Source: Eledone cirrhosa
Taxonomy: Eukaryota
NCBI GenBank assembly: GCA_964016885.1
Contig: OZ024750.1
Coordinates: forward strand, 12,338,001-12,402,000
Direction of reading: 5' to 3'
DNA length: 64,000 nucleotides
Position numbers and translations under genes: made by a program. Within the stretch, counting starts at the first letter, position 1. Each line of letters opens with the position of its first letter. Positions 1,181 through 51,610 of this stretch are shown in pieces. A model generated the notes under the pieces. It ran no database searches. It was not told where the DNA came from and saw only the letters and a program-made list of their open reading frames with translations.

Positions 1181-1234
<54 letters not shown>

Positions 1235-1241
<7 letters not shown>

Positions 1242-13916: not shown

Positions 13917-13953
13917 ATTGTACAGCCGACAATGTTATTCTCCATTCTTTTAC

Positions 13954-13987
<34 letters not shown>

Positions 13988-14022
13988 TAGTAAAAGAATG
14001 AAGAATAACATGGCTGTACAAT
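13917..14022. repeat. Inverted repeat (about 36-bp arms) around a (TA)n spacer
   Basis: attgtacagcc[gaca]atgttattctccattcttttactat pairs with atagtaaaagaatgaagaataacatggctgtacaat. Confidence 0.85.
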
Positions 14023-14035
14023 AGGGTTTATTTAA

Positions 14036-14145
14036 AATATTAACAGTTGTTTCATTAGTCCGGTGTGTCTAAAAGTCGCTATCGTTAGAAGTTACGTCAC
14101 TCGACTTTAATTACAGTTGATACCCGACCAAATCGTCAGAATACT
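14036..14145 (-). ncRNA. Type I hammerhead ribozyme-like motif with extended stem II
   Basis: Minus strand reads agtatt CTGACGA tttggtcggg-[about 60 nt]-ccggactaat GAAA caactg TT aatatt. Stem I is agtatt/aatatt, both core boxes are present, and stem III is near-palindromic. Confidence 0.6.
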
Positions 14146-14171
14146 GATTACCTTAAACGATATCTTGTTAT

Positions 14172-14231
<60 letters not shown>

Positions 14232-14372
14232 TGCATGCATGGTCCTGTAACTCCTGGGGGAGTTGTAGGAGAAGTGTATTGACATACACCATTCCTAGGG
14301 CATTTTATTTAAAACCTGGTAGAGCCCATCTCCTCTCCAGGATATATATATATATATATTATGTGTGTGTGT

Positions 14373-15243
14373 GTATAATAGCCCGATTACGTAAATATTC
14401 GCTGATTTTCTGAACATTATATCTGAATTTGTGAAGTTATATTAGACAGAAACGGCGTCGTCGTCCAGGAAATGAGATATTTACCTATACCTCTACCTAA
14501 ACACAGTCAGCGTATCTACTAATAACTAAATATGTGTTCTCTGAACAGTTAATTGTGGCTGCATTACTTCAATTCACCAGATTTATCGAGTGAGCTAGAC
14601 GCTGGCCAGAGGACTCTAAATTTATACCAGCTATCTTCGTTGCTTTGATTATATTATACTCCCAGCTGCGCTGATTTGAAACTCCTGTATAAGGTTAGAC
14701 TTTTCACTATTTCTTGTTTATGTTTAATATTAAATTCTGAGTATTGAATGTTCGATTTTGTATCACAAATCGGATTTTATTTGCTTGTATATATGTACAT
14801 ATGCATGTTCATCGTTATGTATGTATGCACATATACTAGAGGCAGGTTGAGTGCTTCATTTTGCGGCGAATTCCTTTGTCTGAATTCAACCACCAAACCA
14901 CGTGTTTTAGTCTGCGACAGAATCTTCCTCTTTTCATTAGAGGCAGAGTGGGGGAATTCCGTGAACTGCTGGATAGCTTATCCATTGGTTCTGGCTAACT
15001 CACACTATCGTATGATTTGGGCAATCTGCTGAAGAAGTGTAATAGCTCGATTACGTAAATATCCGCTGATATTACGTGATTTTCTGAAATTTATCTGCAT
15101 TTGTGGAGTTATATTACACAGAAACGACGTATTTACTAATAACTGTGTGTCCTCTGAATAGTTTATTGCAGCTACATTACTGCAATTCGCCAGATTAATT
15201 AAATGAGCAAGACGCTGGCCGGAGGATGCTGAATTTATACCAG
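14373..15243 (+). repeat. Two diverged direct copies (14373-14630 and 15038-15243) of an LTR-like sequence
   Basis: Both begin TGT(A)..AATAGC.CGATTACGTAAATAT and align through 'gacgctggcc.gagga...atttataccag'. CpG-rich relative to the flanks. LTR identity is inferred only from the TG start. Confidence 0.55.
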
Positions 15244-15612
15244 AAATTCACTCAGATGGTGGATGGGTGCTACACGAGAATGCTGAGGATGGCTCTGAAC
15301 ATTAATCAGTATACACTGAGGATGAAGAACTCAGAGCTGTATGGGAGCCTCCCAAAATTCAGCTCAAAAGTGACACAGTGGAGACTGAGGTTAGCTAGAC
15401 ATGCTCACCGACATCCAGAGTTGACACTGCACTCAGTGCTCCTGTGGGAGCCTCTGCATGGACATACTGGAAGAGGAAGACCGAAGTTAACACATGTTGA
15501 TGCCCTAAGGACAGACACTGGTCTGTTGGAGACACAGGATATGGCAGCGATAATGAGAGACAGAGACTGCTGGAGAGAACTCGTCCATGGATCTCGGGAA
15601 TTTTACCCGCCT

Positions 15613-15615
<3 letters not shown>
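15244..15615 (+). mobile_element. RTE/RTEX-type LINE ORF C-terminal fragment, uninterrupted
   Basis: ORF 15226-15615: DGCYTRMLR...LYGSLP...RLRLARH...VLLWEPLHG..GRGRPK.T..D.LR.DTG...MRDRDCWR, the typical post-RT C-terminus of RTE-group elements. The stop codon is directly followed by (TA)n. Confidence 0.85.
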
Positions 15616-15643
<28 letters not shown>

Positions 15644-16287
15644 TAGTTTAAAAAATATATACTACAGTCTTTGCTTACCCCACCTTACCATAATCAGCAC
15701 CTTCTAAAGTTCTCAGTGTGTGTGTAGGTATAATTATACCAGTAATATACTTTCGGTAAATAGTCTCTTTCTTCTTGCCTCCTAATAATTCTACTTCCCT
15801 CTTAAATCATCAGTACACAAGTAAACAGCCTTCTCTTTCTCTTGCCTCACACTGTTACTATCTCGCTCCCTTCAACATTTCTCTCTCTCTCCTTCCACAC
15901 AATTACTATTACCCTCCCCCCTACCATCAAAACTTTCTCCCACATTTTTAAAAACCATTACTCCATTACCCTCACATATAGATACACATAATGATTATAT
16001 TGATATTTAGGTCTAAGGATGAATTCAATGTTTAAATAGAAACGACATACCATAAATATACAAGTATCTAAAAACATCCAAAACGTTTTGTATATTATAC
16101 GAATTTTTAAGAATGTTTACTTCATCCATGCTTAATATTCATTTGTAGTGATAGAAAAAACTGTTACAATTAAAATAAGCTGTTAGGGTTAGAGTAAACA
16201 CATTGATATACAACTGAAAAATCCTGTCTCTGTGAAGAAGTGAAAATACATCCAGTGTGCTCTACTAGAAAATGTCTTCTTCTTTGA

Positions 16288-16390
16288 CCACTTATTCCTG
16301 AGAGGGTCATGGGAGGCAGAGTCCTTAAACACTCCTTCCAGTGGGTCCTGTCAGAAGCAACCATCTCCCACTGATCTAGCTGGACCCCCT
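16288..16390 (-). mobile_element. RTE-like LINE 3' end (second family)
   Basis: MVASDRTHWKECLRTLPP. Homologous to 12150-12260. Confidence 0.65.
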
Positions 16391-16536
16391 ATATGATGTT
16401 AAAATACTTAAAATACCGAAGAAGAGTTTATGTGGTAACCAAACATTTCCCAGTTCAACTAGTCAAAGAATTTATTCACTGAGAGTGAAATAAATAATTC
16501 TGCCATATCCCATACAACTTTTAACCAGTAAACTGT

Positions 16537-16742
16537 CATCATCATTGTTTAACGTCCATTTTCCATGCTAGGTTGGGTTAGATGTTTTGTCACCTTTGAG
16601 GCAAGTCAGGTCAGGTGACCATGTCTTGCTCATACAGAACTCTTTCAGGCTTAGTTTCTATGGCTGGATGTCGTTCCTAATGCCAACCAGATTTACAATG
16701 TGTACTGGGTATTTTTTGTCCTGAGTCCTACACGACCACTTA
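16537..16742 (-). mobile_element. RTE/SINE 3' tail
   Basis: 'catcatcattgtttaacgtccattttccatgctag...ggctggatgtcgttcctaatgccaacc'. Confidence 0.8.
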
Positions 16743-19204
16743 AAAACTTCTATATCACACATTTTCACCTACATAGTGTGTATATTGACTTGATTGCTAG
16801 TCTATGTAAAGTTAGAAATATTTTCCGTGTACATATCAGCTGGTCTTCCATTAGTATCACAGCAATTCCTGTTTCAGAATCTGACAAAGATTTATAATTC
16901 TGAAAAGCTGTCAGTTTAATAGCCAGGTTCCATTCATCAGTAAGATTATATGCATTTCAAATATGTAAATAAGCTTCAATATATTGGATGTTTTCATTTC
17001 AATGCTATATGTGTTGATAATTGTTTTATACAGTTGTTAAACTGACAGCATTATGCAAATTACCTAATGCACATGCATGCTAAGGAGCATCTTCTTGGAA
17101 CACCCGACACCTTCTATTTATCAGTTAAATGTATCAGTGTTAAGTGAAATCTGGTGACTATTTAAATATATTTGAAATTGAGTCAAGTTTATAACTGCAA
17201 CATACTTCAAAGTTTCCTTCTATAGAAGGATTATGTTTATAGCAATCATATAAATAAACTTTGTTATTTCTGATTACTTTAGATGTACTTATATTACATG
17301 ACCTCAGTGAAGATGGAAAACGGTTTGTTTGTTGTTGTTTGTTTTGTTGTTTTTTTTGTTTGGTTTGGTTCCTTCATCTGTCTGTTAGCCTGTATTCTCT
17401 ATAAGAATAAAATTGTACTAAACATATAGGATAAAATTTATATTAGTTTTATGATTGAAGAAGCATCTTAATTCCTCAAGTGTATGGTGAATATAATCTT
17501 ATGTTGTCTGCATTTCAGTGAACCACTTTCAAGACTCGTTATTTTTATTTTTCCTTCCATTCTAATTAGTTAACTTATAAATGAATACATTATAAGTTTC
17601 ACTTGATATTTGAACAACTAAAGTATTGATGTCTATTTTAGTGTTGTTTTGATTTTCAGCATGTAGTTCCATTTTAAGCATTATACAGTTACTTTTACTG
17701 TATTTCATCCTAACATTTTCCTTCATTTACGATGATGCATTCTGTCTATTCATTGATTTCTCAGAATTTCTAAGATTGTCTTTCGTTGATTTCTTTGATC
17801 ATTGTCTCTTTATCCAGCTTGATGTGATTAGTTTTTGCAAGTCTTTTCTTTCTTCAATGCAGTCTTCATACATTTCTCTGAACTCATTTTCATACTGTCT
17901 GATGTTAAGTATCCAAATATCTGTTATTTCCTCCATATACCTTAATGTTATATGTATTAGGTATATGTATCATATAATTGGCAATCTTTCACATCTGTTT
18001 TTATATCCTATAGAACCTTTTCTGTTATAATTCCATTCACACTTAGGGAACTTTATAGGAATATACTAGACTTTTGTTATAAAATGAGAACAATGTTCTA
18101 AATAGAAGCAAAAATCTTGTCTTAGTGATAGAGAGAGCCCAAATACTTTTTTGTTAAAGACTGGTAGGGTAACATTCTTACTATCTGAAAGACTTTCTAC
18201 AATGCCTGGTTATTGAAATTAGGACAGAAAAAAACCACTATTCCATTTCCTACAGAAGAAATATATACTTTAGTGAGAATGGTAATCTACTACCAGGGGT
18301 ACTTAGACTTAAATTGTGCATGTATACAATAGAGATTGAGTATCTGGAAACATCACTTTCCATGAAATCAAAAACAAGATACTTAACACTCAGAGATTTT
18401 CCTGTATTCAAGCTCTTGTATAAAGTACAAGCAGCAATCTACATGAGTAGAATTGACTGAATAAACAACAGCTAAACTGTTTTAACATGAAGAGTAATTC
18501 CTAGTAAAACAAGTAAACAGTGTTTATTAGCAATCAACCAAGAAACTCCTGGCCTGGCAGTTTACAACAATTTTAAATAGCTATTATTAATATGAAAACT
18601 TCTATGTATTTCTAGCAAATATTAGAATAGACTATAATAAAATCCATATTCTGGTATGTGCTTGGCTCCATTTTATAAAACATGCTTTAGCCTTAATACA
18701 TGCTTCAATGTATTATAATGGGTAAATGATATTTTAAATGTGTTACATTTCATATATTTGATAGAATTAATACCATATAAACTTTAAATACATAGCTATA
18801 CATTGAATTCTAAGTTGTTGCTTCATGCAACAAAACTGGGGCAACTTAATTCATACATGATAATTATGTAAATATTTTATTCTTCCTTAAATCTATATGA
18901 TATGAATGAAAAATATTTCTATTTTTCTTGAAACAATGTCATTATCTCTCAACGAATCTACCAAAATCCATCTTTGAATAATCCCTGAATCAGAATATCC
19001 CAAATCTCAGCTACTCACAATGTGAAAAGGGTGAATTTATTAAAAGTGATGAAGAAAGTGAAAACTTCTAATGGAGTGGGAATGAAGCAGTTGAGGAAAA
19101 ATAAAATATTTACTCTGAAATCAAGCAACAATACCAAAATGTTTCTTTTATATTTTGTTCTAAAATAGAACAATCATGTTTCCCCGATATGTTTTAGATT
19201 TTAA

Positions 19205-19239
<35 letters not shown>

Positions 19240-20537
19240 TCCTTTGTCTCACATATCGATATGCAGAAAATCTGATGTAAGTTGGGAGTATTTGACTTCT
19301 TTGAACTTTGCAGAATTTTCCATGTTCCTGCATTGGATTTTATGTCAAATTCTGAAAATCATTGTCCCTAAGACCTCACATCTGTGGGACAAAAATCAGA
19401 AATTAAGCATATAAATGAAAAATGTGTTATGTCCAAAAAGCATTTGTCAACATTTTTAACCATGTAGCTGTTTAGACTGGATATTCTGTCAGAATCGAAT
19501 ATGCATTCTTTAATTTGTATGCTTGGTCCTCTTCATATTGGAGATCTTATCTCATTGGTAACAACTCTTCAAAATAGGATCCTAAAATTGCAAGTATTGT
19601 ATGAGGGTCTTTATTATTTTTTTTTCATTTTTCCATCACTGCCTAATAAATGTTTCCAGGCATTCATCTAGTCTCTCTTTCATTTTAGATTATCTTAACA
19701 TTAGCATTTATATTCTTCCTGCTGCTACATTAAATTTCAATGCGATTAATCTCGTTATTAATGTATGACATTTTAATACAAGCAGAAATGGCAGATTTTA
19801 AATAGACAAATGAATATTTATAAACAGAATCCTTGTAAAAGTTTGAGTAGATGTTTCCTTTGCCTGTTATTTCAACGGAAAATTAAGTAGAGAAATATGT
19901 CCCAATACCAGTGGGTGTTCAAAGTCGAATATAATGGGACTATCAGTACTATTAAGAGCATATGTATTCAGAAGATATTAACATATTTATGTATTTTGAT
20001 GAAAAGGTACATAAATGATGTACAATAACATGTTTATGTATGAAAGTACAAAAAACTTGCAACTTATTTGGGAATGATTCTATGAAAGTAGAAGAAAGCA
20101 TTGTTTCTATTAAAGATAAAGTTCTGTGGATGTCCAATGTAATAAGTTTGAAATGATAATATTTGGTTTACAAATGAAAAAAATGTCAAGGTCTGAGATA
20201 AGCACCAACAATTCAAAACAGTGAAACAGAATGGCATGCAATATCCCCTGGTAGTTGGAGTTTAGGATAATGATACTATCTGCTTGGTCAACACTGATAT
20301 TTGGAAATTGTGAAGACAGTTAATTAGCAACTGTTAATTTTCGCTGTCTATTACAATTGCCTCTATTAAGGACTTTGTGCTGATATTACTGAAATTAAAT
20401 TTTGCATTTCACTTCTCTGAGATGAAGTTCAATGAAATACTGGGATTCAATTGATTACACCTCTTCCCTATAAGTTGTGGTTCTGTGTTTTAGTTAGAAA
20501 GCCTTATCATCTCTATTATTATTGCTCTGTCATGCAA

Positions 20538-20700
20538 TCATCATCATCATTGTTTACTGTCCATCTTCCACACTAGCATGGGTTGGACAATCATCATCAT
20601 TATTTACTGTCCATCTTCCATGCTAGCATGGGTTGGATGGTTTTGTTCCACTTGAGGTGGGATTGGTCAGGAGACCGTGTCTCACTCATATAGAACTGTC
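20538..20700 (-). mobile_element. RTE/SINE 3' tail with a duplicated terminal segment of about 50 bp
   Basis: 'atcatcatcattgtttactgtccatcttccacactagcatgggttgga' occurs twice in tandem. Confidence 0.75.
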
Positions 20701-20807
20701 CCAATGCAGTTGGATAATGCATCAGGGTATTTAGTCATCTGTCAAGTCACAAGGACCTCAGACAGATAATACTTTCCTACCATGTTAAATAGAGAGCAGT
20801 GCCTTGA

Positions 20808-21156
20808 ATAATATGGTCCTAGGGATAGACAATACCCAAGAGAAAGGTGGGGTAGTTATAGCTAAATAATATGGTCCTAGGGATAGACAATACCCAAAAG
20901 AAAGGTGGGGTAGTTATAACTAAAATGTAAAGTCCTAGAGATATACAATACCCAAGAGAGGGGGAGGGTTAGTTATAGCTAAAATGTAAGGTCCTAGAGA
21001 TACACAATATCCAAGAGAAAGGGGGTAGTTATAACTAAAATGTAAGGTCCTAGAGATATACAATACTCAAGAGAAAGGTGGGGTAGTTATAGCTAAGTAG
21101 TATGGCCTTAGGGATAGACAATACCCAAGAGAAAGGTGGGGTAGTTATAGCTAAAA
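20808..21156 (+). repeat. Minisatellite, about 58-bp unit x6
   Basis: Unit approximately 'atggtcctagggatagacaatacccaagagaaaggtggggtagttatagctaaataat'. Six 'caata(c/t)(c/t)caa' cores counted. Confidence 0.9.
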
Positions 21157-21279
21157 TGGCTTTGATGATAAATCTACTTAGTCAGTCAAGGCTAACTTTG
21201 GTTTAAACAGCAACAAACACAACAATAAACTAGTTTGTGACTCTAAATACTTCTATTCCATTTAGTATTATGAACACTC

Positions 21280-21600
21280 TAAATAGCTCTCTAGCTTGGT
21301 ACTGGTGATTATTGATTTGTTTCTCTGTATTTGAATACACACCTGTTGTCATAGGGACCAGAAAAATCTTAGTTTACAGAGTTCTTTTCATTGTCAATTA
21401 TTAAGACTTGGTCACCGTGCTTCAGCAATCTGGTTTGTTTGCAGAGAAACGTTCATGTAGATTTTACAATCAACATTCTCTAATATTGGTTCTAGACAAT
21501 GTTCATATAGTTTCTCATTTATTTGATGACATAAGCTACCTGCTTCCCGATGAAAGTTTTCTTTTTTCCACCTAATGGACTCCAATGATATTATCTTTTC
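21280..21600 (-). mobile_element. Decayed R4/Dong-like (REL-endonuclease) non-LTR retrotransposon C-terminal region
   Basis: ORF 21412-21603 'LYEHCLEPILENVDCKIYMNVSLQTNQIAEAR*P' followed by 'IIDNEK...PYDNR' resembles the R4-clade pattern 'YEH.PE.VLENE..KI.WDF.IQTD..IEARRPD.VIIDK....ID.AVP.D.R'. Confidence 0.7.
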
Positions 21601-21664
21601 CAACCTCCTTTAGGTCATATTACATTCACACTAGACATCTCTATTACAATCAGGATAATAATAA

Positions 21665-21960
21665 TGATATCTACTATAGGCACAAGGCCAGCAATTGGAA
21701 GGGGAGGGGAAAGTCAATTAAATCGACCTCAGTGCATTACTGGTACTTTAGGTCATATTGAATTCACAATAGACTTCTTTATTACTGTCATGATAATAAT
21801 AATTGTTTTTAATTTTGGCACAAGGCCAGCAATTACCCAGTGCATTACTGGTACTTTATTTTATTGATCCCGTAAGGATGAAAGGCAAAGTTAACCTTGG
21901 CGTGATTTGAAACTCAGAACGTAAAGGACCATAACTCTATGCTGCAAAGCATGGCGTCTG
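21665..21960 (-). mobile_element. tRNA-derived SINE group B, two adjacent partial copies
   Basis: 'ggcacaaggccagcaatt...cagtgcattactggtacttt...taaggatgaaaggcaaagttaacc', the reverse complement of 37624-37819. Confidence 0.8.
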
Positions 21961-22959
21961 ATCCCTTTACCCATTAATCAGGTTCTTTTGTTAGACAGAA
22001 ATATTGTGAGACATTTATTTTCCATTTTGAAGCTTGAAAGAATAAATTAAATGACAATTTTCTAAAACCACATCGATTCAGTGGAATAAAGTGTGACTCA
22101 TTTAAACCTTCTCTTTACTGTGACAGGTGCTATGCTGGTTGTCAGCTGTTGCTAATACCCTCACAAAACTGGTGGATCTCAGAAGGACTATCTGAAAAAA
22201 GATTAAGGGGTGAACAATGAACTTAATCAATATCTGAATTCATTTTACATGTGAAAACAGTTGTTCCCCACTTTTAGTTCTCAATAGAAAGTTATCATTG
22301 AAGTTCCACCAGCCACATTACTCAAATTGTACAAGGCTGTGAGCATCTAGCAACATTTTAGATACCAGGTGCCCAGTCTTAGGCTCAGGAGAATTATAAT
22401 AAGCAGAAAGCTATGATTCTACAGATATAGGATCCATGGCTTTTTTTTATTTTTTTTTTTTTTATTAGAAAACACCTACATGACCTCTTTACTGTATGAA
22501 CTGGGTGCTTTTTGTTGTAATACCTACATGACCACTTTACAGTGTAGGCTGTGTGTTTTTTGTGGAGACACAAGAAACTGAGAGAAAGAGGAACATATAG
22601 AAATTTCTCCCACAAAAAATATATATGGGATAGCTTGAGCAGACTTGTGAACTGTAAAAGATCCTCTTCCAGTCATGCAGCCTTTTAAATAGAAGAGAAC
22701 TAATTAACAACTGTTGGTTTCATTTGGATACCCAAAGCACTCACAGTACAACCTACTGCATTTCTATAACTGTGGACATACATTTATACATAAAGTTTCA
22801 AGGCCTAGAGCAAGGATTATGGTTGATTTATACCAGGCCACTTGTTATGGAAACAGGGTTCCTCTTCAAAACATAACTTTCTGATACACTTGTAGTTGGT
22901 CTTTTGTCAGAAAAATGCGTATTTGGTTCAACCATTTAAAAGTTAGAAATTTTGGCAGA

Positions 22960-23340: not shown

Positions 23341-23806
23341 CCTAATCACTGTTCATATCAAGGAAACAATCTTCTATCAGACCCTCTCTAATTTTGTTTA
23401 GCAAACATAATTATAATCCCTGTTAATAGTCTCTTTTAATGGTCTTACATTCCTAGCTCTTCAGAAAAAGAAACTATTTTGATTCCAATTAGTTGCTGAC
23501 TTGTTATAATGCTCAAATGAGACTCACGATAGAGTACTGCTAGACACAAAAATACATCTTGTTGAATACAAACATGTGAGTCAATGCATTAATTTCATCA
23601 CCACTGTGCCTAACAAAATTGACTTTGCTTTCAAAACTCTTCTCCACTTTGTTGTAAATAAATATCACCAACACTACGGAGGTTGTCACGTCCTTGACAC
23701 AACTGAAGGGTCCTCTCAACTCTTTGTTTGGCAAGCTTTCTATGGTAGAATGCTCTACCTACTACCAACCATATTACAGCATGTACAGGGTGTGTTTATC
23801 ATGTAG

Positions 23807-24009
23807 ATCACCAACACTAGGGAGGTTGGCATGTATATCACCAACACTAGGGAGGTTGTCATGTATATCACCAACACTAGGGAGGTTGTCATGTAGATCA
23901 CCAGCACTAGGGAAGTTGTCATGTATATCACCAACATTAGGGAGGTTATCATGTATATCATCAACATTAGGGAGGTTGTCATGTATATCACCAACACTAG
24001 GGGAGGTTA
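23807..24009 (+). repeat. Minisatellite, 30-bp unit x about 7, continuing from a reversed SINE/RTE tail
   Basis: Unit 'atcaccaacactagggaggttgtcatgtat'. It explains the repetitive ORF SPTLGRLSCI. Confidence 0.9.
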
Positions 24010-24539
24010 TAATGTCCTTGAAATGTTAATATATAATTGATGTTTCTATTTAGATTGCAAAGCCGAAATAAAATCATTCTATGACCAAAATCAACAAAGA
24101 TGAGTATCCCATTGAAGAATGGGGAAATGTCTCAACTACTTAATGCTATATAATTTAGGCTCCAACATATTGCAGTACCTTCCAGTAATGGAAATTGATA
24201 AAAACAAAAGGGGAATATATAAACAAAAGCAGCTTCTATTTGTTGTTTGTCAGAGAAATATTTCCATATTATTGCTTCTCTGGTATGGCATAATATATTG
24301 AATTAGATATCTTTGCTAATTGTGGGCCTCAGAAATAACTGATTCTTGTTGTTTTTACACTCTAAATTCATTTCACATGTGTGTGTGAGTGTTCTATACA
24401 TGTACATATATGAATATGTCCTTGAGTTAATTTGTGTATATGTGAATTTGTTGAAAGGGTGTGTAAATTGTGTATGACTGTTGCAGGTATTTTTATGTTT
24501 ATATGCATGTGTAATATGCATGTATGAGTTTTGCAGATA

Positions 24540-24855
24540 TTTGTATGTGAATCTGCATGTATGAGTGTGCATATATCAGGCATTTGCACGTGTATTTGCT
24601 TGTATCAGTGTGCATATATCAGGTGATTGCATGTGTATTTGCATGTATCAGTGTCCATATATCAGGTATTTGTATATGTGTATGCAAATATGAGTGTGCA
24701 TATATCAGGTATTTGCATGTGTATTTGCTTGTGACACTGTGCATATATCAGGTGATTGCATGTGTATTTGCATGTATCAGTGTCCATATATGAGTTATTT
24801 ATATGTGTGTATGCATGTATCAGTGTGCATATATCAGATGATTGCATGTGCACTG
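24540..24855. repeat. Degenerate TG-rich tandem repeat
   Basis: Recurring 'gtgtgcatatatcagg' and 'tgcatgtgtatttgc', with a duplicated block of about 130 bp. Confidence 0.8.
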
Positions 24856-28114: not shown

Positions 28115-28281
28115 GTAAAGTTAGTACATTAAGCCATATGGAAACGGAAACTTTTATTAACACATGAATAATTCTTTTCTTATTCTCTTAATTTCTTTCT
28201 TCTTAATCTTGAAAAAGAGCTTACGCTCAAAACATTCATAAAAAGTTTACTTTTACGCATGGCTTAATACACTGACTTTAC
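28115..28281. repeat. Diverged inverted repeat enclosing a decayed hammerhead-like motif (28208-28236)
   Basis: gtaaagttagtacattaagccatatggaaacggaaactttt pairs with aaaagtttacttttacgcatggcttaatacactgactttac. The inner 'ttgaaaa a gagc ttac gctc aaaa catt' resembles CTGAAGA-A-stem-GAAACGTT. Confidence 0.5.
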
Positions 28282-28975: not shown

Positions 28976-29027
<52 letters not shown>

Positions 29028-30690: not shown

Positions 30691-30694
30691 TATA

Positions 30695-30850: not shown

Positions 30851-31984
30851 TGAGATCTCTATTAAATGCTGCTTTGTTACAAAATATATTTCCCAGATGT
30901 TTGTTAGTCCTTGAAAAATTATTCTCTTATATGAAGCTGTTTTTATCTTTTGGCAGCAATAATTGCTAAATACAGCTTAAAGATATTTCCATTTCTTCTA
31001 ACTGATGTAACTCATCAACATGCAGAAGCATGTTGAATTTAGAGTTTCTCAATGTAAATAAATCAGTTATTCCCAGCAAATCTGATATATGTTTATCTCA
31101 TCCAAGAAGGGGGAACAAAAAAAAAAGTGATTATCTTTTATCTTATTCCCTCTGTGCCAATAATATTCATTGAATGTATTTACTTACATATTCTTACCAA
31201 TGAAACACAATAAAGAAATGTTTTATTTCTATTTATTTCTATGTTGTTGTTATCCAGAATATTTTATTTAAACACAGCATTGCTATGAAGCCCCAGAAGT
31301 GAAACAAACCAGCCTGTCTGGTTAATCATAGTTTATAGTTGACCACACATTCAAATACATTCTTTTTTTTAAATGGAAAGCAGAACATAAACGTAGTTGA
31401 GTGCTCTCTCTCTCTCTCACTCTCTCCAGCCCCTCTCTCTCCCTCTCCAGCCCCTCTCTCTCTCCCTCTCCACACACACTCTCTCTCCCTCTCCACACAC
31501 ACACACTCTCTCCACCCTCTCTCTAAATCTATGAAGCAATGAACAAACCATATTGTCCATGTCCTTCATTTTTTTTTTGTTTTATGTAAAACTCTAAAGT
31601 AAATAACAATATACAGTAATAATGAAATAATAACTATATAATGTTAATCTAATAGCTTCCCATAAACCATTCTCCATTTACACACTAAACAGTAGAAATA
31701 GAGAATCTGAAATGAAAACTTGCATGTTTAGAATTTAAACAAATCAAATCAGTTGGGTTTTTGAAAGAAAAAAACTCAGGAAAAGAGGAAAAAAACAACA
31801 ACAAAACCTCCCAGAAAAACAGGAAAAAAATCCCCCCAAACAAATAATTCCTTATCAACAAACCAGTTTTACTCAATATTTATATCGAATTTAGAAAACA
31901 AAACAGATCCCATGGAATTTACTTTTCTGTTAACATGAATCTTCAAATATATAATTCATTATTATTATTATTATTATTACTAAA

Positions 31985-32370
31985 GGGCGGTGGATTGGCA
32001 GTATTGGCAGAGAGTCGGACGCCATGCTTTGATGCATAGAGTTACGTCCCTTGCCATTCTAAGTTCAAATCCCGCCAAGGTTAACTTTGCCTTTCATCCT
32101 TACAGGGTCGGGTCGATAAAATAAAGTACCAGTAATACACTGGGTAATTGCTGGCCTTGTGCCAAAAGTAGAAACAATTATTATTATTACTAAAGGCGGT
32201 AGATTGGCAGAGAGTCGGACGCCATGCTTTGATGCATAGAGTTACGTCCCTTGCCAATCTGAGTTCAAATCCCGCCGAGGTTAACTTTGCCTTTCATCCT
32301 TACGGGGTCGATAAAATAAAGTACCAGTAATGCACTGGGTAAATGCTGGCCTTGTGCCAAACGTAGAAAC

Positions 32371-32400
<30 letters not shown>
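31985..32400 (+). mobile_element. Tandem dimer of SINE group B
   Basis: Two near-identical units of about 200 bp 'ggcggt(g/a)gattggcag...gttcaaatcccgcc..ggttaactttgcctttcatccttac.gggtcgataaaataaagtaccag...ggccttgtgcc', each ending in (ATT)n. Confidence 0.9.
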
Positions 32401-32403
<3 letters not shown>

Positions 32404-33064
32404 ATTGTTTATTTAGTTATTTATCATCACCATCATCATTACCATTATCACCATAATCATCACATCACCATCACCATCACCACCATCATCACCATCACCA
32501 TCATCATCATCGTGGTTTTGTTTTAATCTTTATTTTAACACAACTGCATAAAACTGCATCTTTTTCTGTAGGATAGCACGTTTTCCTGTTTACTAATTTC
32601 TAAATATCCCTAGAGTCTACCTTCATTTCATTCTCTTATTGACGTGCATGTTTATATATTCTATATAACGTGTGTATATATATATATATATGTATACATA
32701 TAAATCCTCATGTTTAAACATTTTCATATTTCCACTTTTCTTTCTCATAAATGTTTATTATGCATATTTCTACATTTATCTATGTCTTTATAAATTCCTG
32801 CTTCCTTGTCTTACATGTATCAATAAATTTAATGTTTCATGCTTTCTTAATGCAGGTTATATGTTACTATAGTTTCAATGTTTTTAGAAAATCAAGTAAT
32901 TCAGAATTCACCAGAAATGTTGGACTTATTTCTCCATGCTAAATGCCAAAATATTGTTTGCAACACGTATATTTCTGCTTCATTTTTTCTCTCTCTCTAC
33001 AAGCAGAAACATTTCCTATAAGCATAAAATAAAGAACACTAAGAGGTAGGCAGTCACACACACA

Positions 33065-33150
33065 AAGAACACAACATGAAACCCAGGAATTGAACTCACA
33101 ACATTCTGATCATAAGTCCAACACCTTTACCACTAGGCCACATGCCTCCA
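33065..33150 (-). mobile_element. Isolated SINE head A (tRNA-like part)
   Basis: Reverse complement reads 'ggaggcatgtggcctagtggtaaaggtgttggactt...gagttcaattcctggg'. Confidence 0.7.
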
Positions 33151-33179
33151 CTGAGATATATATATATTGATATATATAT

Positions 33180-33575
33180 CATCATCATCATCACCGTCTT
33201 TACGTCCGTTCTTCCATGCTAGCATGGGTTAGATGGGTTGACCTGTTGTGGGCTGTGTCTGGTCGGCTGACCTTGTCTTGCTCATAAGGGAACTGATTCT
33301 GGCTTCATTTCTACAGCTGGATGCCCTTCCTAACACCAACCTCATTTACAGTGAGTGATGGGTGCTTTTTTTTTCTGTGGCACCTCCATGACTACTTTGC
33401 AGTGGAATGATAGGGACCCCAGTCCCTATCATCTCATTTCTACAGCTGAGTAAACTGGAGCAATGTGAAATAAAATGTCTTGCTCAAGGAAACAACACGT
33501 CACCCGGTCCAAGAATTGAACTCACAACCTTTCGATTGCAAACCCAATGCTCTAACCACTAAGCCATGCGCCTTC
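33180..33575 (-). mobile_element. Full-length SINE, head A with RTE tail
   Basis: Reverse complement of 51611-52053, with one fewer 48-bp unit. Confidence 0.9.
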
Positions 33576-33675
33576 ATCATAATTAAAAACTTAAAAAGGT
33601 TCAATGAATTCATCAATGAATAAAGTTTCACAATAGATTAGAAGCACTCTACAGTAAGGTTTTCTGGAGTTATTA

Positions 33676-33891
33676 ATTACTTCAAAATATTAATAAATTT
33701 AGACATTCATGTGATCAAATATATTTTATTATACATATTTCAGAGGTGCTGAGCTATTTCAACAGTATGTCCTCATCAGATAAAATAAGTTGATGCCTGA
33801 CATACCTGTTGAAATAGCTCAGTACCTCTGAAATATGTATAATAAAATATATTTGATGACATGAATGTCTATATTTATTAATATTTTGAAG

Positions 33892-33895
<4 letters not shown>
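33676..33895. repeat. Long fold-back (about 96-bp arms, about 27-bp spacer) abutting (TA)n, containing a decayed hammerhead-like core
   Basis: attacttcaaaatattaataaa...gagctatttcaacagtatgtc (33676-33771) pairs with gacatacctgttgaaatagctc...tttattaatattttgaagtaat (33799-33895). Minus strand reads CTGATGA g gac atact gtt GAAA tagc TC. Confidence 0.85.
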
Positions 33896-33950
<55 letters not shown>

Positions 33951-34249
33951 GTGTGGGAGGAAAGGAATATGTTGCCTTCCCAGAAATAGAATTTATCATT
34001 GTAACCTTTTGTCTGTGTCTTCTCTTAATTAGAACTAAGGCAGTGTTTAGGTCTTAATCCACCTAATTGGTTCACTGGCTATCTGAAATGTATTACAGTC
34101 TGTAAATATATTTACAACATACAAATCTATCAAACCATTTCTGTCATCAATTCTTCTAACATCGTTATTAACCTCCAAGCACAACAGTGAGTCCAGCTTG
34201 ATGTACTTTTTTGTTTTTTGGGTTTTCTAATAAAATTCCACCTTGTTCT

Positions 34250-34252
<3 letters not shown>

Positions 34253-34345
<93 letters not shown>

Positions 34346-34362
34346 CCCCCCCCCTCTCTCTC
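34253..34362. repeat. (CT)n microsatellite
   Basis: Direct reading. Confidence 0.95.
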
Positions 34363-34594
34363 ACACACACATATCTATATATCTTCATATCTTCTCTATT
34401 GTATAATATAATTTTACAGATATATTGTGTTTCTCATCAATAACTGAAGCATTACAATTCAATTATTGAATATGATTTCCACAATTACTTTAATAATTTA
34501 CTGCTAAGAATTCGAATGATTAACTTTCAGAAGGAACATATATCAGGTCATTAAGTATGAAATGTCCGATTTTGAATTGGAAATGTATAAGGAA

Positions 34595-34928
34595 CGACTT
34601 CCCACAAGTACAAGCCGAAGCTGAAGCATATAGACAATATGCCCCCACCCTCTCCCACTGCAAAGTGGTCATGGAGATGTCACTACAAAAAAAGCATCCA
34701 GCCCACACTGTAAAGTGGTCGTGTAGGTGCAACGGTAAAGAAGCACCCAGCACTAACTGTAAATGAGGTTGGTGTTAGGAAGGGCATCCAGCTGTAGAAA
34801 TCAAGCCAAAATCAGTTCCCATATGAGCAAGACAAGGTCACCTGACCTGGCATTGCCCACAATAGGACAACCCATTTAACCCATGCTAGCGTGAAAGAAT
34901 GGACAAAAACGGTGATGATGATGATGAT
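34595..34928 (+). mobile_element. RTE LINE 3' UTR
   Basis: Starts with the LINE-specific 'cttcccacaagtacaagccgaagctgaagcatatagacaatatgcccc' seen after the RTE ORF end at 3630 and 61415, then the shared tail and (GAT)n. Confidence 0.85.
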
Positions 34929-35489
34929 ATATATATCCATGTGATCAGTGAGGCCTGTGTACAAGCCAACCTCGTTTCTTGCATACAACATACATTAAGT
35001 TGCTTGCTTTCAAACATCTCTTCATTTTGCCTGGATCTAACTCTCAAAATACTTACATTAATAACTCAATCTTGAAACCTTAAAACTAATTTTGGCAATA
35101 ATATAGAACCATATAAATTTCCATTTTAGAAATTAGTATCAATTTTAGCTTTTATCAAATCAAATAGCCTCTTAAGATACATTTTAGCTATCTCTACTCA
35201 TTTCAGAGATTTGTGAAGAGTTAGTACAATAGATAATGAACTGAATTTCATATATTTAAAATAAATCTAAATACAAACTAATTATTGAAGACTATTGTAT
35301 ATTATCACAGCAAGATGTTAACTGCTGCACAATTCCAGTAATTGATGTTGGTAAATGTAAAGCCATTTTAATATTATTGGTAGATTGTTTAGTAAATACA
35401 ATTTTACTGTTTGTCTATAAAACTCCTTGAGTGTATTTGTAGCTATATCTCCTATATTTATTTTGTTTGAAAACATTTAATTGATCATT

Positions 35490-35700
35490 CCTCCTCCCCT
35501 CTTTCTTCTTCTTCTTCTTCTTCTCCTCTTCCTCTTTATTCTCCTTCTTCTTCTTCTTCTTCTTCTTCTTCTTCTTCTTCTTCTTCTTCTTCTTCTTCTT
35601 CTTCTTCTTCTTCTCCTCTTCCTTCTTCTTTTTCTTATCCCCCCCCCCATCCTACCCCATCTCCTTATTCTACTTCTCCTTCACCTTTTTCTTCTCCTCT
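35490..35700. repeat. (CTT)n / pyrimidine-rich tract
   Basis: Direct reading. It explains the poly-Leu ORF. Confidence 0.95.
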
Positions 35701-35707
35701 TCCTTTG

Positions 35708-35850
35708 CCCACTTATTCTTGGGAAGGGTCATAAGGGCAGAATCCTCAAGCAGCATGCCTTCCAGAGATTCCTATCATAATCAGAAGCAACCATCTCCAA
35801 TTGATCCGGCTGGATTCCCAAGCGAGATCAGCCAAGCTTATTCATGGATG
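35708..35850 (-). mobile_element. RTE-like LINE 3' end (second family)
   Basis: Homologous to 12150-12285 and 16288-16390. Confidence 0.65.
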
Positions 35851-36221
35851 TTAAAGATCATGTCCCTTAAAAAATTTGTTATCGTTATCAGTTGCAATGT
35901 CACATATAAACCAGCAGACAACTGAAGAATCTTTCTGGCATGAACAATAAAGATTTAGATTATGAAGCACAAAGAATTTTCAAATTGAAATGCTACTAGC
36001 TAGAGTTATAGTTCACTTAATGAGAAGCCATTTTAAATTCGATCAATACTGACTAGCTGAATGCAATGGAATTTTTAATATGTCATTTTTCATTCAGAAA
36101 ATTATTCTGCTATTAATATTGCAAACAGTTCAAACTATTAACTATGACAATCAATTTGTCCATCTCAATAATTGAATTAAATCAAAAAAGAAAAAAGATG
36201 GAAGCATATATATATATATAT

Positions 36222-36560
36222 GGAGGCACATGGCTTAGTGGTTAGAGCATTGGCCTTGCAATCGAAAGGTTGTGAGTTCAATTCTCAGACCGGGTGATGT
36301 GTTGTTTCCTTGAGCAAGACACTTTATTTCACATTGCTCCAGTTTACTCAGCTGTGGAAATGAGATGATAGGGACAGGGGTCCATATCATTCCACTGCAA
36401 AGTGGTCTTGGAGGTGCCACGGCAAAAAAGCACCCAGCACTCACTGTAAATGAGGTTGGTGTTAGGAAGGGCATCCAACTGTAGAAATGAAGGCAGAATC
36501 AGTTCCCGTCCCACCCTTGCAAGCAGGGAAAAGCGGACGTAAAATGATGATGATGATGAT
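36222..36560 (+). mobile_element. SINE, head A with shortened RTE tail
   Basis: tRNA head, 'ccttgagcaagacac', and a tail ending 'cagttcccgtcccacccttgcaagcagggaaaagcggacgtaaaat(gat)n'. Confidence 0.9.
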
Positions 36561-36868
36561 ATATGTGTATGTGTGTGTGTGTGTATATATATGTGTGTGT
36601 GTATATATATGTGTGTGTGTGTATATATATGTGTGTGTGTATATATGTGTGTGTGTGTATATATATATATATCTATATATATATATGTGTGTGTGTATGT
36701 AAATGTATATATATATATATATATATATACCACCATTATCGTTTAACATCTGCTTTCCCTACTAGCAAAGGTTGGACAAGTCTACATAGAAGTGTACTGA
36801 AGTGGGCCTACTGATTTCTCGGACAAGTTGAAGTTTCTGCGTCTTGCTTATGTAGTCATACATTCAAC

Positions 36869-36907
<39 letters not shown>

Positions 36908-37328
36908 ATGTAAATGTATATATATATATATATGTGAGTGTAGTGCAAGCCAACCTCCATAAGCCTTTTTATTTGTAAACTTTCTACTCCAACCATAATT
37001 TTTCAGTAGCACCACTCCACATAAATTCCTCAATTTAAGAATGACCTGTAACTATTAACCTTATTTGAAAATATATCTGACCAAGAATGCCTTTTGTGAA
37101 AATCAGTCATGTGGAACTATTGTCATCTTGCCTGACGGTTTGGATCTCACAGAACCACCTGCCTCTTTGAGGTCAAATACCAACCTACTACCATCTACAA
37201 ACTGACCAATGAGAATCAAGACCATTCCAGCTGACAACATCAAAGTATTCCTAACAAGCTCATATGTCCCAAGGCTCTGATACCATCAACACTATACACA
37301 CACAGCTGGCATATCTAAGAACTGACTA

Positions 37329-37384
37329 ACTGCCTGATGAGGTCATAGCCATTCAATGGCTATCATCGAAATATATATAGCAGT
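37329..37384 (+). ncRNA. Type I hammerhead ribozyme, apparently intact (predicted cleavage after 37379)
   Basis: actgc CTGATGA ggt c atagccat tca atggctat c atc GAAA tatata TA gcagt. Stem I actgc/gcagt; full CUGANGA and GAAA boxes; G10.1-C11.1 pair; 8-bp distal stem II; palindromic stem III; NUH = AUA. Confidence 0.8.
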
Positions 37385-37449
37385 AAATAAAGGATTATGA
37401 GTTGATGCAATTGACTTATGTTTCGTCACTATATATATATATATACTTT

Positions 37450-37624
37450 TTTGATGAGTTGTGGTGCACCTGGGCACTGTACACAATATTTCATTATTGT
37501 TATTGTTATTATATCATGACTCACACTGTTCATTTTCCTGACACTTTATTATTCTATGTACTATACATGCACCTTTGATGAGTTGTAGTGCACCTGAGCA
37601 CTGTACACAATAATTTCATTATTA
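37450..37624 (+). mobile_element. Two copies of a LINE-like 3' terminus with stem-loop and (ATT)n
   Basis: 'tttgatgagttgt(g/a)gtgcacctg(g/a)gcactgtacacaata..tttcattatt' occurs twice. A third copy lies at 43420-43545. Confidence 0.65.
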
Positions 37625-37819
37625 GCGGTGGATTGGCAGTATCGGTAGAGGGTTGGACGCCATGCTTTCCAGCATAGTTACGTCCCTTTACGATCTGAGT
37701 TCAAATCCCGCCGAGGTTTACTTTGCCTTTCATCCTTACGGGGTCGATAAAATAAAGTACCAGTAATGCACTGGATAATTGCTGGCCTTGTGCCTAAAGT
37801 AGAAACAATTATTATTATT
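37624..37819 (+). mobile_element. SINE group B, full length
   Basis: GAGTTCAAATCC B box, central 'tttgcctttcatccttacggggtcgataaaataaagtaccag', and an (ATT)n tail. Confidence 0.9.
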
Positions 37820-37854
37820 TATATAAATAGTAACACAACAGTTAGTTCACCATA

Positions 37855-37895
37855 CCGAGAACAATTGTTTCACTTTATGCGGATCTTCAGCTCGG
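37855..37895 (-). ncRNA. Minimal type I hammerhead motif (stem II mutated)
   Basis: ccgag CTGAAGA tcc gcataa agt GAAA caattg TT ctcgg. 5-bp stem I and palindromic stem III. Confidence 0.65.
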
Positions 37896-37933
37896 AGCTG
37901 AAGAACTGCATAAGGTGAAGCAATTATTCTCGG
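37893..37933 (+). ncRNA. Minimal type I hammerhead motif, mirror copy (GAAA changed to GAAG)
   Basis: cggag CTGAAGA act gcataa ggt GAAG caatta TT ctcgg. Confidence 0.5.
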
Positions 37934-38059
37934 TATGGTGAACTAACTGTTGTGTTACTACTTCTACCAAACTCGTCCCATGGACTGAGTGATCTACCAC
38001 AACGGATATTACCTTCCAGTGCTCTACCTCTCTCTCTCTATATATATATATATATATCT

Positions 38060-38277
38060 ATGAAGGCGTGTGGCTGAGTGGTTAGAGAATTGGATTCGCA
38101 ATCGTAAGGTTGTGAGTTCGATTCCTGGACCAGGCGATGCGTTATGTCCTTGAGCAAGACACTTTATTTCACGTTGCTCCTTCTACCTGGAGTTGCGACC
38201 GATAGATAGTATTAGCAATTGGAAAGACCAACGGAAACATTGTTCCCTCGGTCCGATTTGACGAAAGTCGATCGTCC
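38060..38277 (+). mobile_element. tRNA-derived SINE, head A with body type 2, CpG-rich young copy
   Basis: A box TGGCTGAGTGG, B box GAGTTCGATTCC and many retained CpGs. Flanked by (TA)n. Confidence 0.9.
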
Positions 38278-38287
38278 TTTATATATA

Positions 38288-38431
38288 TCTATATCTATAT
38301 ATCTATATCTATATCTATATCTGAACACTGTACAGCGTAAATCAGGCTGTTCGTTTGTTTACAAACGAACAAAGCGAACATTATAATAAATGTTCGGTAA
38401 ACTGATACGTGCATATATATATGTGTGCCTG

Positions 38432-38503
<72 letters not shown>

Positions 38504-38716
38504 CTGTACGTCTGTATACATATATGTATGTACGTATACATACATACTTACATTTAAGTAAGTGCCGTACTAAGAGTGAGAAATGAAATTTCGTTTCATT
38601 CTATTCCATATATCTATATCTATCTATATATGTATATATATATTTATATATATATATATATTTATATATATATTTATATATATATTTATATATATATATA
38701 TTTATATATATATATT

Positions 38717-38748
<32 letters not shown>

Positions 38749-38867
38749 TATATATATATATTTATATATATATATATATTTATATAATAAAAACAAATAA
38801 CGAAACGAAATTAAATTTCGTTTCGTTTGTAACTCACTTTTGTATGACTGACGCTTAAACATACTAG
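38288..38867 (+). mobile_element. Possible non-autonomous Helitron-like element
   Basis: A|TCTATATCTATAT start and CTAG|T end. Several internal palindromes and embedded TA tracts. The subterminal hairpin is weak. Confidence 0.35.
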
Positions 38868-38914
38868 TATTTCAGTATACATATGTGGATGTACATTTTT
38901 AACTTAATTGTTTA

Positions 38915-39060
38915 TATTTATATATATATATTTATATATATATATTTATATATATATATTTATATATATATATTTATATATATATATTTATATATATATA
39001 TATTTATATATATATATATTTATATATATATTTATATATATATATATTTATATATATATT

Positions 39061-39149
<89 letters not shown>

Positions 39150-39168
39150 ATATATATATTTATATATA

Positions 39169-39227
<59 letters not shown>

Positions 39228-39252
39228 TTATATATATATATATTTATATATA
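38915..39252. repeat. (TA)n interrupted periodically by TT, i.e. (TATATATATT)n-type
   Basis: Direct reading. A similar tract lies at 38630-38787. Confidence 0.95.
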
Positions 39253-39255
39253 CTG

Positions 39256-39342
39256 TATATTGGGTCGTCAAGTATGAAATTTGTAAGAATTTGTTTTTTG
39301 TCTAAAGATTTCTACAAATTTCATACTTGACGATCCAATATA
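39256..39342. mobile_element. Tiny Tc1/mariner-type MITE (30-bp TIRs including TA)
   Basis: tatattgggtcgtcaagtatgaaatttgta pairs with tacaaatttcatacttgacgatccaatata (1 mismatch). 27-bp interior; TA-flanked; mariner-like TATTGGGT start. Confidence 0.65.
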
Positions 39343-39441
39343 TATATATATGTGTGTGTTTTTCTTAATTTTCTTTTTTATGGGACCCAAGTATGTGTTT
39401 AGTTAGACATTTTGGGGAAGTGCCATACATATGTGTGTGTG

Positions 39442-39496
<55 letters not shown>

Positions 39497-39580
39497 CATA
39501 CTTCCCTCCCATAAAAAATGTTTGTTTTTCCCTTTCTTATTCTTATCTGTCTTTATATTTTTTCTTCTCTTTCATTCTAT

Positions 39581-39614
39581 CTTCTGATGAAGGACTAACA
39601 TCCAAAACTTTAAG
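39581..39614 (+). ncRNA. Decayed minimal hammerhead motif
   Basis: ctt CTGATGA a gga ctaaca tcc aAAA ct TT aag. It differs from ...tccGAAAcgTTaag at two CpG positions. Confidence 0.5.

Positions 39615-51536: not shown

Positions 51537-51610
<74 letters not shown>

What the first reader, a model, noticed from the sequence alone, without database searches (positions are those of the whole stretch)
13917..39614. Recurring module: hammerhead motif, fold-back repeat and (TA)n site, in several unrelated sequences
Seen: at least six loci carry hammerhead-core motifs in otherwise dissimilar sequence: 14036-14145, 28208-28236, about 33745-33779, 37329-37384, 37855-37933 and 39581-39614. Four are in or beside a long inverted repeat, and most abut TA tracts. 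Similar fold-backs without a visible core occur at 1235-1307 and 59365-59501. Established: Penelope-like elements leave inverted, partial pseudo-LTR arrangements, carry minimal hammerheads, and some lineages favour AT microsatellites. Inference: this genome hosts many distinct families of short ribozyme-bearing, fold-back, non-autonomous retroelements or pLTR relics, at roughly one per 10 kb here. Whether they are true retrozyme-like units or just PLE debris is open, and they may be undescribed for this lineage.
Basis: partly seen in the sequence, partly recalled or inferred. Interest (0 to 1): 0.75.

Follow-up and report, generated by a model that had tools for sequence, protein, structure and literature searches.

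The report
Hydra-clade Penelope stubs with hammerheads
Most of these ribozyme-bearing hairpins are cut-short ends of several families of Penelope-type jumping genes pasted into TA repeats, a known kind of genomic scar, but in back-to-back pairs only one arm carries an extra tail, which suggests the element's enzyme likely starts copying once from each of two hairpin-marked sites.

Summary
Five of the six motifs belong to multi-copy families in this 3.0-Gb genome; 28208 is single-copy and unsupported. Three strict type I hammerheads occur against 0.05 in shuffles; one core pattern hits 86,648 places genome-wide against 577 for its control. Four of the five families, plus the 1235 fold-back, continue upstream into RT/GIY-YIG ORFs with Hydra-clade motifs, so these are 5'-truncated pLTR ends of autonomous-type elements, not retrozymes. 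Exception: the 59365 fold-back belongs to a 1,278-nt non-coding tandem unit; the 39581 family has no ORF link. Fold-backs are head-to-head pairs; exactly one arm carries a 65-157-nt tail in 40 of 40 family pairs and 11 of 11 unbiased pairs. A conserved RCTC...GAGY stem begins 7-9 nt past the short end. Insertion ends do not pile up at the cleavage site. Hydra PLEs with hammerheads, (TA)n targets, inverted copies and one-sided tails are published, including one octopus family. No RNA data; cleavage untested. The scan noted this system before on other DNA of this and other genomes.

The parts
1229..1401 (.). Family 8 head-to-head pair: tail-less arm 1229-1286 (sense -) keeping only the GAAA-stem III half (1254-1280), tail arm 1282-1401 (sense +) with GCTC...GAGC stem at 1316-1364. 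Family core is CAGAAGA (U4A).
   Evidence: EN ORF upstream in L124
10998..11093 (-). 3' end of a relative of the 39581 family; hammerhead lost
   Evidence: 75% over 96 nt to L219; read
13917..13956 (+). 40-nt solo 3' stub of family 1 between TA tracts; makes the tail-to-tail hairpin 13917-14011
13986..14172 (-). Family 1 insertion: inverted tail tip (14149-14172) joined to a 5'-truncated copy with type I hammerhead 14036-14145 (long stem II, GUU triplet) and 3' end
   Evidence: EN ORF upstream in L155, L156
28103..28293 (.). 77% inverted repeat with a degenerate U3-A8-like motif at 28208-28236; single copy, not supported as a member
33582..33897 (.). Family 3 head-to-head pair: tail arm 33582-33807 (sense -; hammerhead 33722-33787, short 3' site 33677, tail stem 33644-33670), tail-less arm 33806-33897 (sense +, core lost)
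   Evidence: RT-EN ORF upstream in L161
36933..37429 (+). Family 4 solo 5'-truncated copy (3' UTR plus hammerhead 37329-37384, AUA triplet) between TA tracts
   Evidence: thumb-EN ORF upstream in L150-L152
37822..38028 (.). Family 5 head-to-head pair: tail-less arm 37822-37896 (sense -; hammerhead 37855-37895), tail arm 37892-38028 (sense +; damaged hammerhead 37894-37933, short 3' site 37963, tail stem 37971-37992)
39493..39614 (+). Old, 3'-clipped copy of family 6 with damaged minimal hammerhead 39580-39614; clade and autonomy unknown
59288..59501 (.). Family 7 head-to-head pair: tail arm 59288-59449 (sense -; GAAA half of hammerhead 59429-59449, about 10 nt of SINE end inside, tail stem 59320-59357), tail-less arm 59451-59501. 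Parent is a 1,278-nt non-coding tandem unit.

Best explanation
Five of the six motifs are hammerheads in the 3' ends (pseudo-LTRs) of multi-copy retroelement families, four of which continue upstream into RT/GIY-YIG ORFs with Hydra-clade Penelope motifs, and the fold-backs are likely single insertion events in which two short cDNAs were joined head to head in a (TA)n tract. Shown: family structure, fixed 3' ends at two sites 65-157 nt apart, ragged 5' ends, one tail per pair, tail = first bases of the element body in full-length family-5 copies, a conserved RCTC...GAGY stem 7-9 nt past the first site. Inferred: the RT-EN protein cuts both strands of (TA)n, binds the hairpin(s) on a read-through (tandem or circular) RNA, primes once at each start site, both syntheses abort early, and the cDNA ends anneal by microhomology. 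The hammerhead rides along because it lies 23-57 nt upstream of the first site; it is predicted to need a dimer or protein help and leaves no mark on insertion ends.
For: ORF linkage: 21 of 25 family-5 EN copies have the hammerhead about 200 nt downstream; 4 of 30 N-terminal loci read hammerhead-3' end-tail-5' UTR-ORF with RWR, and DKT follows in L145/L146; same EN in 3 of 5 family-4 loci, 2 of 6 family-1, 1 of 5 family-3 plus relative L255, and L124 for family 8. CxCX5C, CxxC and CxH read in all five, as Craig et al. define Hydra. One tail per pair: 44 of 44 rows, 40 of 40 after removing 4 duplicates; 11 of 11 pairs in the first-on-C1 sample (10 by script, 1 by eye; 2 false pairings dropped). 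Partner arm is nearest or joint nearest of 54 motifs in 7 of 8 pairs. Tail stem in 20 of 22 long-ended and 0 of 32 short-ended motifs, 2.5% by chance; at +7 to +9 in six families, GCTC/GAGC in family 8. (TA)n within 150 nt downstream in 49 of 54 against 15% (window) and 26% (loci) at random. In vitro, an anole PLE extends both strands from two RT starts that define the tail and needs no hammerhead cleavage.
Against: Only 7 of 27 unbiased motifs with 2-4 kb of flank, and 0 of 27 with 1.5 kb, show a sense PLE ORF, so most single copies cannot be assigned directly. Family 7 is non-coding; family 6 gave no ORF in 56 locus rows or 10 wider flanks. No tree against reference PLEs was built; Pfam gave no hit above cut-off. 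In one search the query fixed the tail state of the main arm in families 3 and 5. Arm similarity was uninformative in families 3 and 5 and could reflect gene conversion. Frangieh et al. saw no start-site difference between strands in vitro. The second hairpin is in register in families 4 and 7 and L256 but not family 5.
Confidence: 0.82

Rival explanations
1. Same elements, but the fold-back arises by self-priming of one strand (for example an antisense template, Arkhipova et al. 2013) and the endonuclease then trims the tail from one arm.
For: Arkhipova et al. 2013 read junction palindromes as self-priming; Craig et al. ascribe the tail to EN resolution. It predicts near-identical arms and one tail per pair; the first site is followed by TA-rich bases in families 1, 3, 4, 8.
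Against: Either arm can be the longer one, and some tail arms hold only tail sequence absent from the partner, so trimming would have to hit either arm; the family-5 site is not TA-rich downstream; in vitro RT starts map to both tail ends.
Confidence: 0.2
2. The loci are independent short non-autonomous retrozyme-like units that spread as self-cleaved circles.
For: Family 7 is a 1,278-nt non-coding unit in head-to-tail tandem in 4 loci (L174, L178, L312, L315). 13 of 30 family-4 copies start at the same base (-72). L048-L050 form a 264-286-nt tandem. Retrozymes derive from PLEs per Li et al. 2026.
Against: Families 1, 3, 4, 5, 8 run into ORFs and have ragged 5' ends. The -72 start is an ATAT microhomology to the target, and both alleles of one polymorphic site occur in short and long copies (by eye). 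No pile-up of 5' ends at the cleavage site: 5 of 109 within 2 nt against 7.2 expected (22 of the 109 come from a query bias at +5, and two reference families overlap).
Confidence: 0.08
3. Chance motifs in AT-rich DNA, or MITE-like DNA transposons with terminal inverted repeats.
For: The relaxed descriptor is barely above shuffles; locus 28208 fits this; other hairpins in the window (39256, 50270) match unrelated repeats.
Against: Strict motif 3 against 0.05; 86,648 against 577 genome-wide; stem I, not part of that pattern, forms in 46 of 54; arm lengths and junctions vary per copy and solo arms are common.
Confidence: 0.02

Closest known systems
Hydra clade of C-terminal EN+ Penelope-like elements, incl. 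Hydra-1_Obim (Craig et al. 2021, PMC8557442; passages and supplement parts seen)
   Same: RW[K/R], DKT, CxCX5C linker, CxxC and CxH; 3' hammerhead, often U at the cleavage site and U-U closing stem II; (TA)n target; 5' truncation, inverted copy, one-sided tail. The family-5 N-terminus resembles Hydra-1_Obim by eye.
   Different: No window family has the Hydra-1_Obim hammerhead sequence (by eye). Many families and at least 86,000 motifs; 3' UTRs up to about 1.6-1.9 kb; tails 65-157 nt rather than 30-40; long stem II (family 1), C-C mismatch in stem II (39 of 46), U4A core (family 8).
Minimal PLE hammerheads (Cervera and de la Pena 2014, PMC4209133; parts 1-2 of 4 read)
   Same: Type I, short palindromic helix III, mostly solo motifs from truncated PLEs, opposite-strand pairs 100-700 bp apart, thousands per genome.
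   Different: Count here is about ten times their Xenopus figure (about 9,000); many have 7-8-bp stem I.
Anolis Poseidon PAc mechanism (Frangieh et al. 2024, PMC11167929; parts 1-2 of 4 read)
   Same: Two RT start sites bracket the tail; AT-rich target cut and extended on both strands; hammerhead dispensable and protein-assisted.
   Different: Other clade; they report no strand bias in start site, whereas genomic pairs here use each site once; their start lies in an AC-rich stem-loop in the ORF, here in the 5' UTR beside an RCTC/GAGY stem.
Metazoan non-LTR retrozymes (Cervera and de la Pena 2020, PMC7229834, passages; Li et al. 2026, 10.64898/2026.07.22.740005, part 1 of 5 and passages)
   Same: Family 7: non-coding, hammerhead in each unit, head-to-tail tandem.
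   Different: Unit 1,278 nt against 150-450 bp typical; PLE-type tail and fold-back ends; circular RNA not shown. The other families are ORF-linked.

Membership tests
Hydra-clade PLE | Single ORF with RT and C-terminal GIY-YIG-type EN upstream of the 3' repeat | tested here: met
   Family 5 RT to EN; family 3 RT core to EN, family 4 thumb to EN, families 1 and 8 EN only. All copies seen are broken or truncated.
Hydra-clade PLE | RWK motif and DKT for DKG | tested here: met
   RWR and DKT in family 5; N-termini of the other families were not recovered
Hydra-clade PLE | CxCX5C linker; CxxC and CxH around the EN E and N residues | tested here: met
   Read by eye in families 1, 3, 4, 5, 8; some single copies have decayed cysteines
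Hydra-clade PLE | Placement in the Hydra clade by RT phylogeny | not tested
   No reference set in the script box; homolog search of L250 lists Hydra vulgaris and Argonauta proteins
Hydra-clade PLE | (TA)n insertion, pLTR, inverted truncated copy, optional tail | tested here: met
Hydra-clade PLE | ORF linkage for families 6 (39581) and 7 (59365) | tested here: not met
   No consistent sense ORF; family 7 unit non-coding
Type I (minimal) hammerhead | CUGANGA, GAAA, NUH with stems I and II and palindromic helix III | tested here: met
   Loci 1, 3, 4, 5(-) in the window; family 6 in relatives. Not met by window copies 5(+), 6 and 28208.
Type I (minimal) hammerhead | Compensatory changes in stems | tested here: met
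   46 distinct motifs: several pair types per column; stem I >=4 bp in 38 of 46 against mean 22, max 29 with partners shuffled; relatedness not controlled
Type I (minimal) hammerhead | Self-cleavage | not testable with these tools
   No assay; no RNA run listed
Non-LTR retrozyme | Non-coding head-to-tail tandem with a hammerhead in each unit | tested here: met
   Family 7 only
Non-LTR retrozyme | Same feature for families 1, 3, 4, 5, 8 | tested here: not met
   ORF-linked, ragged 5' ends
Non-LTR retrozyme | Unit-length linear and circular RNA | not testable with these tools
   No RNA holder listed

The most novel reading that the evidence does not exclude
A Hydra RT-EN dimer reads twin conserved RCTC...GAGYGC hairpins on one RNA and primes once at each from the two strands of a cut (TA)n, making every fold-back a fossil of twin priming; the same cis-signals mobilise a 1.28-kb non-coding hammerhead unit, and the result is at least 86,000 hammerheads, one of the densest ribozyme collections in an animal genome, including U4A-core and long-stem-II variants.
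Probability: 0.45. Interest if true: 0.65.

Novelty: new member of a known kind. Interest (0 to 1): 0.38.

Why it matters
The elements and their shape are known, so the loci themselves are ordinary. What could matter: how PLEs make inverted ends and tails is called open by Craig et al. and Frangieh et al.; a strict one-tail-per-pair rule and a conserved hairpin at a fixed distance from the start site give a direct in vitro test and a marker for annotating PLE ends. The genome also offers tens of thousands of natural hammerhead variants and a non-coding PLE-type tandem unit that bridges PLEs and retrozymes. The 2026 Octopus vulgaris repeat paper does not mention hammerheads or ribozymes in its main text.

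Tried and rejected
Rfam found no hammerhead family. Pfam and PDB gave nothing useful for the ORFs. No RNA holder was listed, so expression, cleavage and circles were not examined; DNA contigs laid on 37150-38060 showed only high copy number. Locus 28208: DNA search single copy, guessed pattern empty; low sensitivity for old relics, so absence is not proven. L046/L122 looked like a full-length family-5 element but is an unrelated Hydra-type ORF next door. Sense EN hits 4-6 kb upstream of family 7 (3 of 12) belong to other families. Cleavage-site run-off: not seen. The ORF column was empty through a bad option and was redone. Single-strand MFE folds gave the hammerhead-like fold for loci 4 and 5(-), only stem II for locus 1, and not for 3, 5(+), 6, 28208; cofolds paired helix III for loci 1, 4, 5(-); weak evidence. 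MFE folds of the tails recovered the RCTC/GAGY stem in families 3, 7, 8 but not 1, 4, 5, so the stem rests on motif conservation. No PLE ORF lies in the window. Literature searches; none showed a paper on cephalopod hammerhead abundance, a one-tail-per-pair count, the tail stem or a natural U4A core; subscription papers, Repbase/Dfam, figures and bioRxiv supplements were not visible.
Full report
Observation. The window is 32% GC and rich in microsatellites and lies at G000:C10:12338001-12402000 of a 3.0-Gb genome; an octopus-type cephalopod is inferred from the homologs and the resemblance to Hydra-1_Obim, not shown. A strict type I hammerhead descriptor finds 3 loci against a mean of 0.05 in 100 local dinucleotide shuffles; the relaxed one gives 4 against 1.25. 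Rfam lists no hammerhead among 124 weak hits. Corrections: locus 3 spans 33722-33787; locus 5 holds two opposed copies; loci 5(+) and 6 are damaged; 28208 is single-copy, lacks stem I and lies 616 nt from TA.

Families. Own-genome DNA searches gave 1023, 1292, 88, 1246 and 547 first-look candidates for loci 1, 3, 4, 5, 6 and 1412 for the 59365 fold-back, 40 scored each. These are lower bounds, not copy numbers. The pattern CTGAHGAN{9,38}GAAAYANNTRTH has 43,989 + 42,659 hits against 274 + 303 for the reversed control, about one per 35 kb; it misses long-stem-II, loop-less and variant cores. I took 54 distinct motifs from the first matches on contig C1 (30 loci given by the tool, 20 stretches fetched; part of the 100 listed). 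Stem I, not in the pattern, has 4 or more pairs in 46 of 54, and (TA)n follows within 150 nt in 49 of 54 against 15-26% at random. Neighbouring motifs under 5.5 kb apart are head-to-head in 15 of 29 cases. Across 46 distinct motifs the stems show several pair types per column, and stem II has a C-C mismatch at its fourth position in 39 of 46 (relatedness not controlled).

Parents. Family 5: a copy with an EN frame upstream retrieved 3083 candidates; 21 of 25 loci have the hammerhead just downstream. Translations show DKT, the RT motifs, CxCX5C, CxxC and CxH. In 4 of 30 N-terminal loci the sequence reads hammerhead, 3' end, tail, 5' UTR, ORF with RWR, so the tail is the first 65 nt of the element body. 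Family 4 shares one EN region in 3 of 5 wider loci, family 1 in 2 of 6, family 3 in 1 of 5 plus relative L255, and the 1235 family in L124; those wider loci were chosen because they extended furthest or had a hit. These motifs are the ones Craig et al. 2021 give for the Hydra clade, whose supplement lists Hydra-1_Obim with (TA)n target and a hammerhead. No tree was built. In the unbiased sample only 7 of 27 long-flank motifs show a sense ORF, as expected of short stubs but not proof for each. Family 6 has a clean loop-less core (134 exact hits, 0 control) and no ORF link. Family 7 is a 1,278-nt unit with no PLE protein match and at most 127 stop-free codons, reading head to tail into the next unit in 4 loci: a non-autonomous element.

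Anatomy of the fold-backs. 3' ends fall at two fixed sites; 5' ends are ragged, with hot spots at microhomologies. In head-to-head pairs exactly one arm has the tail: 44 of 44 rows, 40 of 40 after dropping L025, L087, L049, L050 as duplicates; the query fixed the main arm's state in families 3 and 5, not the partner's. In the unbiased sample the script scored 11 one-tail, 0 both, 3 neither in 14 rows; after dropping L269 (TA match) and L230 (unrelated partner) and merging the two L266 rows, which show one tail by eye, it is 11 of 11. Partners are nearest or joint nearest in 7 of 8 pairs. All six tailed window families have RCTC at +7 to +9 after the short end and a later GAGY; the motif is in 20 of 22 long-ended and 0 of 32 short-ended motifs, 2.5% by chance. 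A second such stem follows the tail end at +7 in families 4 and 7 and appears in L256, but not in register in family 5. 5' ends are not enriched at the cleavage site: 5 of 109 within 2 nt against 7.2 expected.

Mechanism. Established (Frangieh et al. 2024): a PLE protein cuts and extends both strands of AT-rich DNA, starts RT at two internal sites that bracket the tail, and does not need hammerhead cleavage. Inferred here: each insertion uses each site once, one per target strand, guided by the hairpin(s), and the two aborted cDNAs are joined. The main rival is self-priming plus trimming of one arm (Arkhipova et al. 2013; Craig et al.), which I could weaken but not exclude. The hammerheads have palindromic or G-U-palindromic helix III and are predicted to work as dimers or with protein help, as reported for PLE motifs; activity is untested and no RNA run was listed.

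Comparison and verdict. It works like, and for five families meets the tested motif and structure criteria of, Hydra-clade PLEs; family 7 meets the DNA criterion of a non-LTR retrozyme but is longer than typical and lacks RNA evidence. Elements, hammerheads, TA targeting, inverted copies and one-sided tails are in print. The count, the strict pair rule, the tail stem, the U4A core (10 of 12 matches) and the C-C mismatch did not appear in my searches, which do not cover subscription journals, repeat databases, figures or bioRxiv supplements. Earlier scan notes reach similar readings on other DNA; they are not independent support. New members of a known kind; interest 0.38.

Noticed in passing
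window 1229-1401 family; L120, L150, L224 and others: Family 8 core reads CAGAAGA (U4A) in 10 of 12 matches, with a real stem III and 9-nt loop; activity unknown.
   Followed up: partly
L315:652-1929 (-); G000:C4 near 37.48 Mb; L174, L178, L312: 1,278-nt non-coding hammerhead unit in head-to-tail tandem with PLE-type ends.
   Followed up: partly
L220-L269: Conserved C-C mismatch at stem II position 4 in 39 of 46 motifs; family 3 may extend stem I beyond an internal loop (by eye), a possible tertiary contact.
   Followed up: partly
L122:5943-8101 (-): Near-complete Hydra-type ORF of another family in two frames, flanked by its own inverted repeat, beside a family-5 fold-back.
   Followed up: no
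L048-L050; G000:C4:27397522-27398185: Three tandem copies (264-286 nt) of a family-5 fold-back with microsatellites, each with a sense hammerhead.
   Followed up: no
window 37625-37817, 59424-59433, 21794-21897, 32078-32381, 57370-57473; L171-L189: A very abundant SINE-like repeat ending in ATT repeats; it inserts at an ATTATT site in family 7, and about 10 nt of it sit in the window's 59365 arm.
   Followed up: no
window 8627-8802, 33368-33577, 36209-36547, 38049-38224, 50704-50986, 51599-51840: tRNA-derived SINE copies; the 50270-50356 hairpin matches a common repeat, probably their tails.
   Followed up: no
window 39256-39342: 87-nt hairpin with 35-nt arms, no hammerhead or tail; similar copies in L100 and L158; MITE-like.
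   Followed up: partly
window 15199-15612 (+): 138-aa frame resembling the C-terminus of an RTE-type LINE RT (recalled resemblance).
   Followed up: no
window 20815-21158, 23799-24015, 24534-24850, 40663-41056, 44050-44394: Minisatellites of period 58, 30, 43, 48 and 36/70.
   Followed up: no
L250:2618-4315 (-): 566-codon open Hydra-type RT-EN frame between inverted hammerhead ends; one homolog is annotated as a GATA zinc-finger-like protein in Argonauta.
   Followed up: partly
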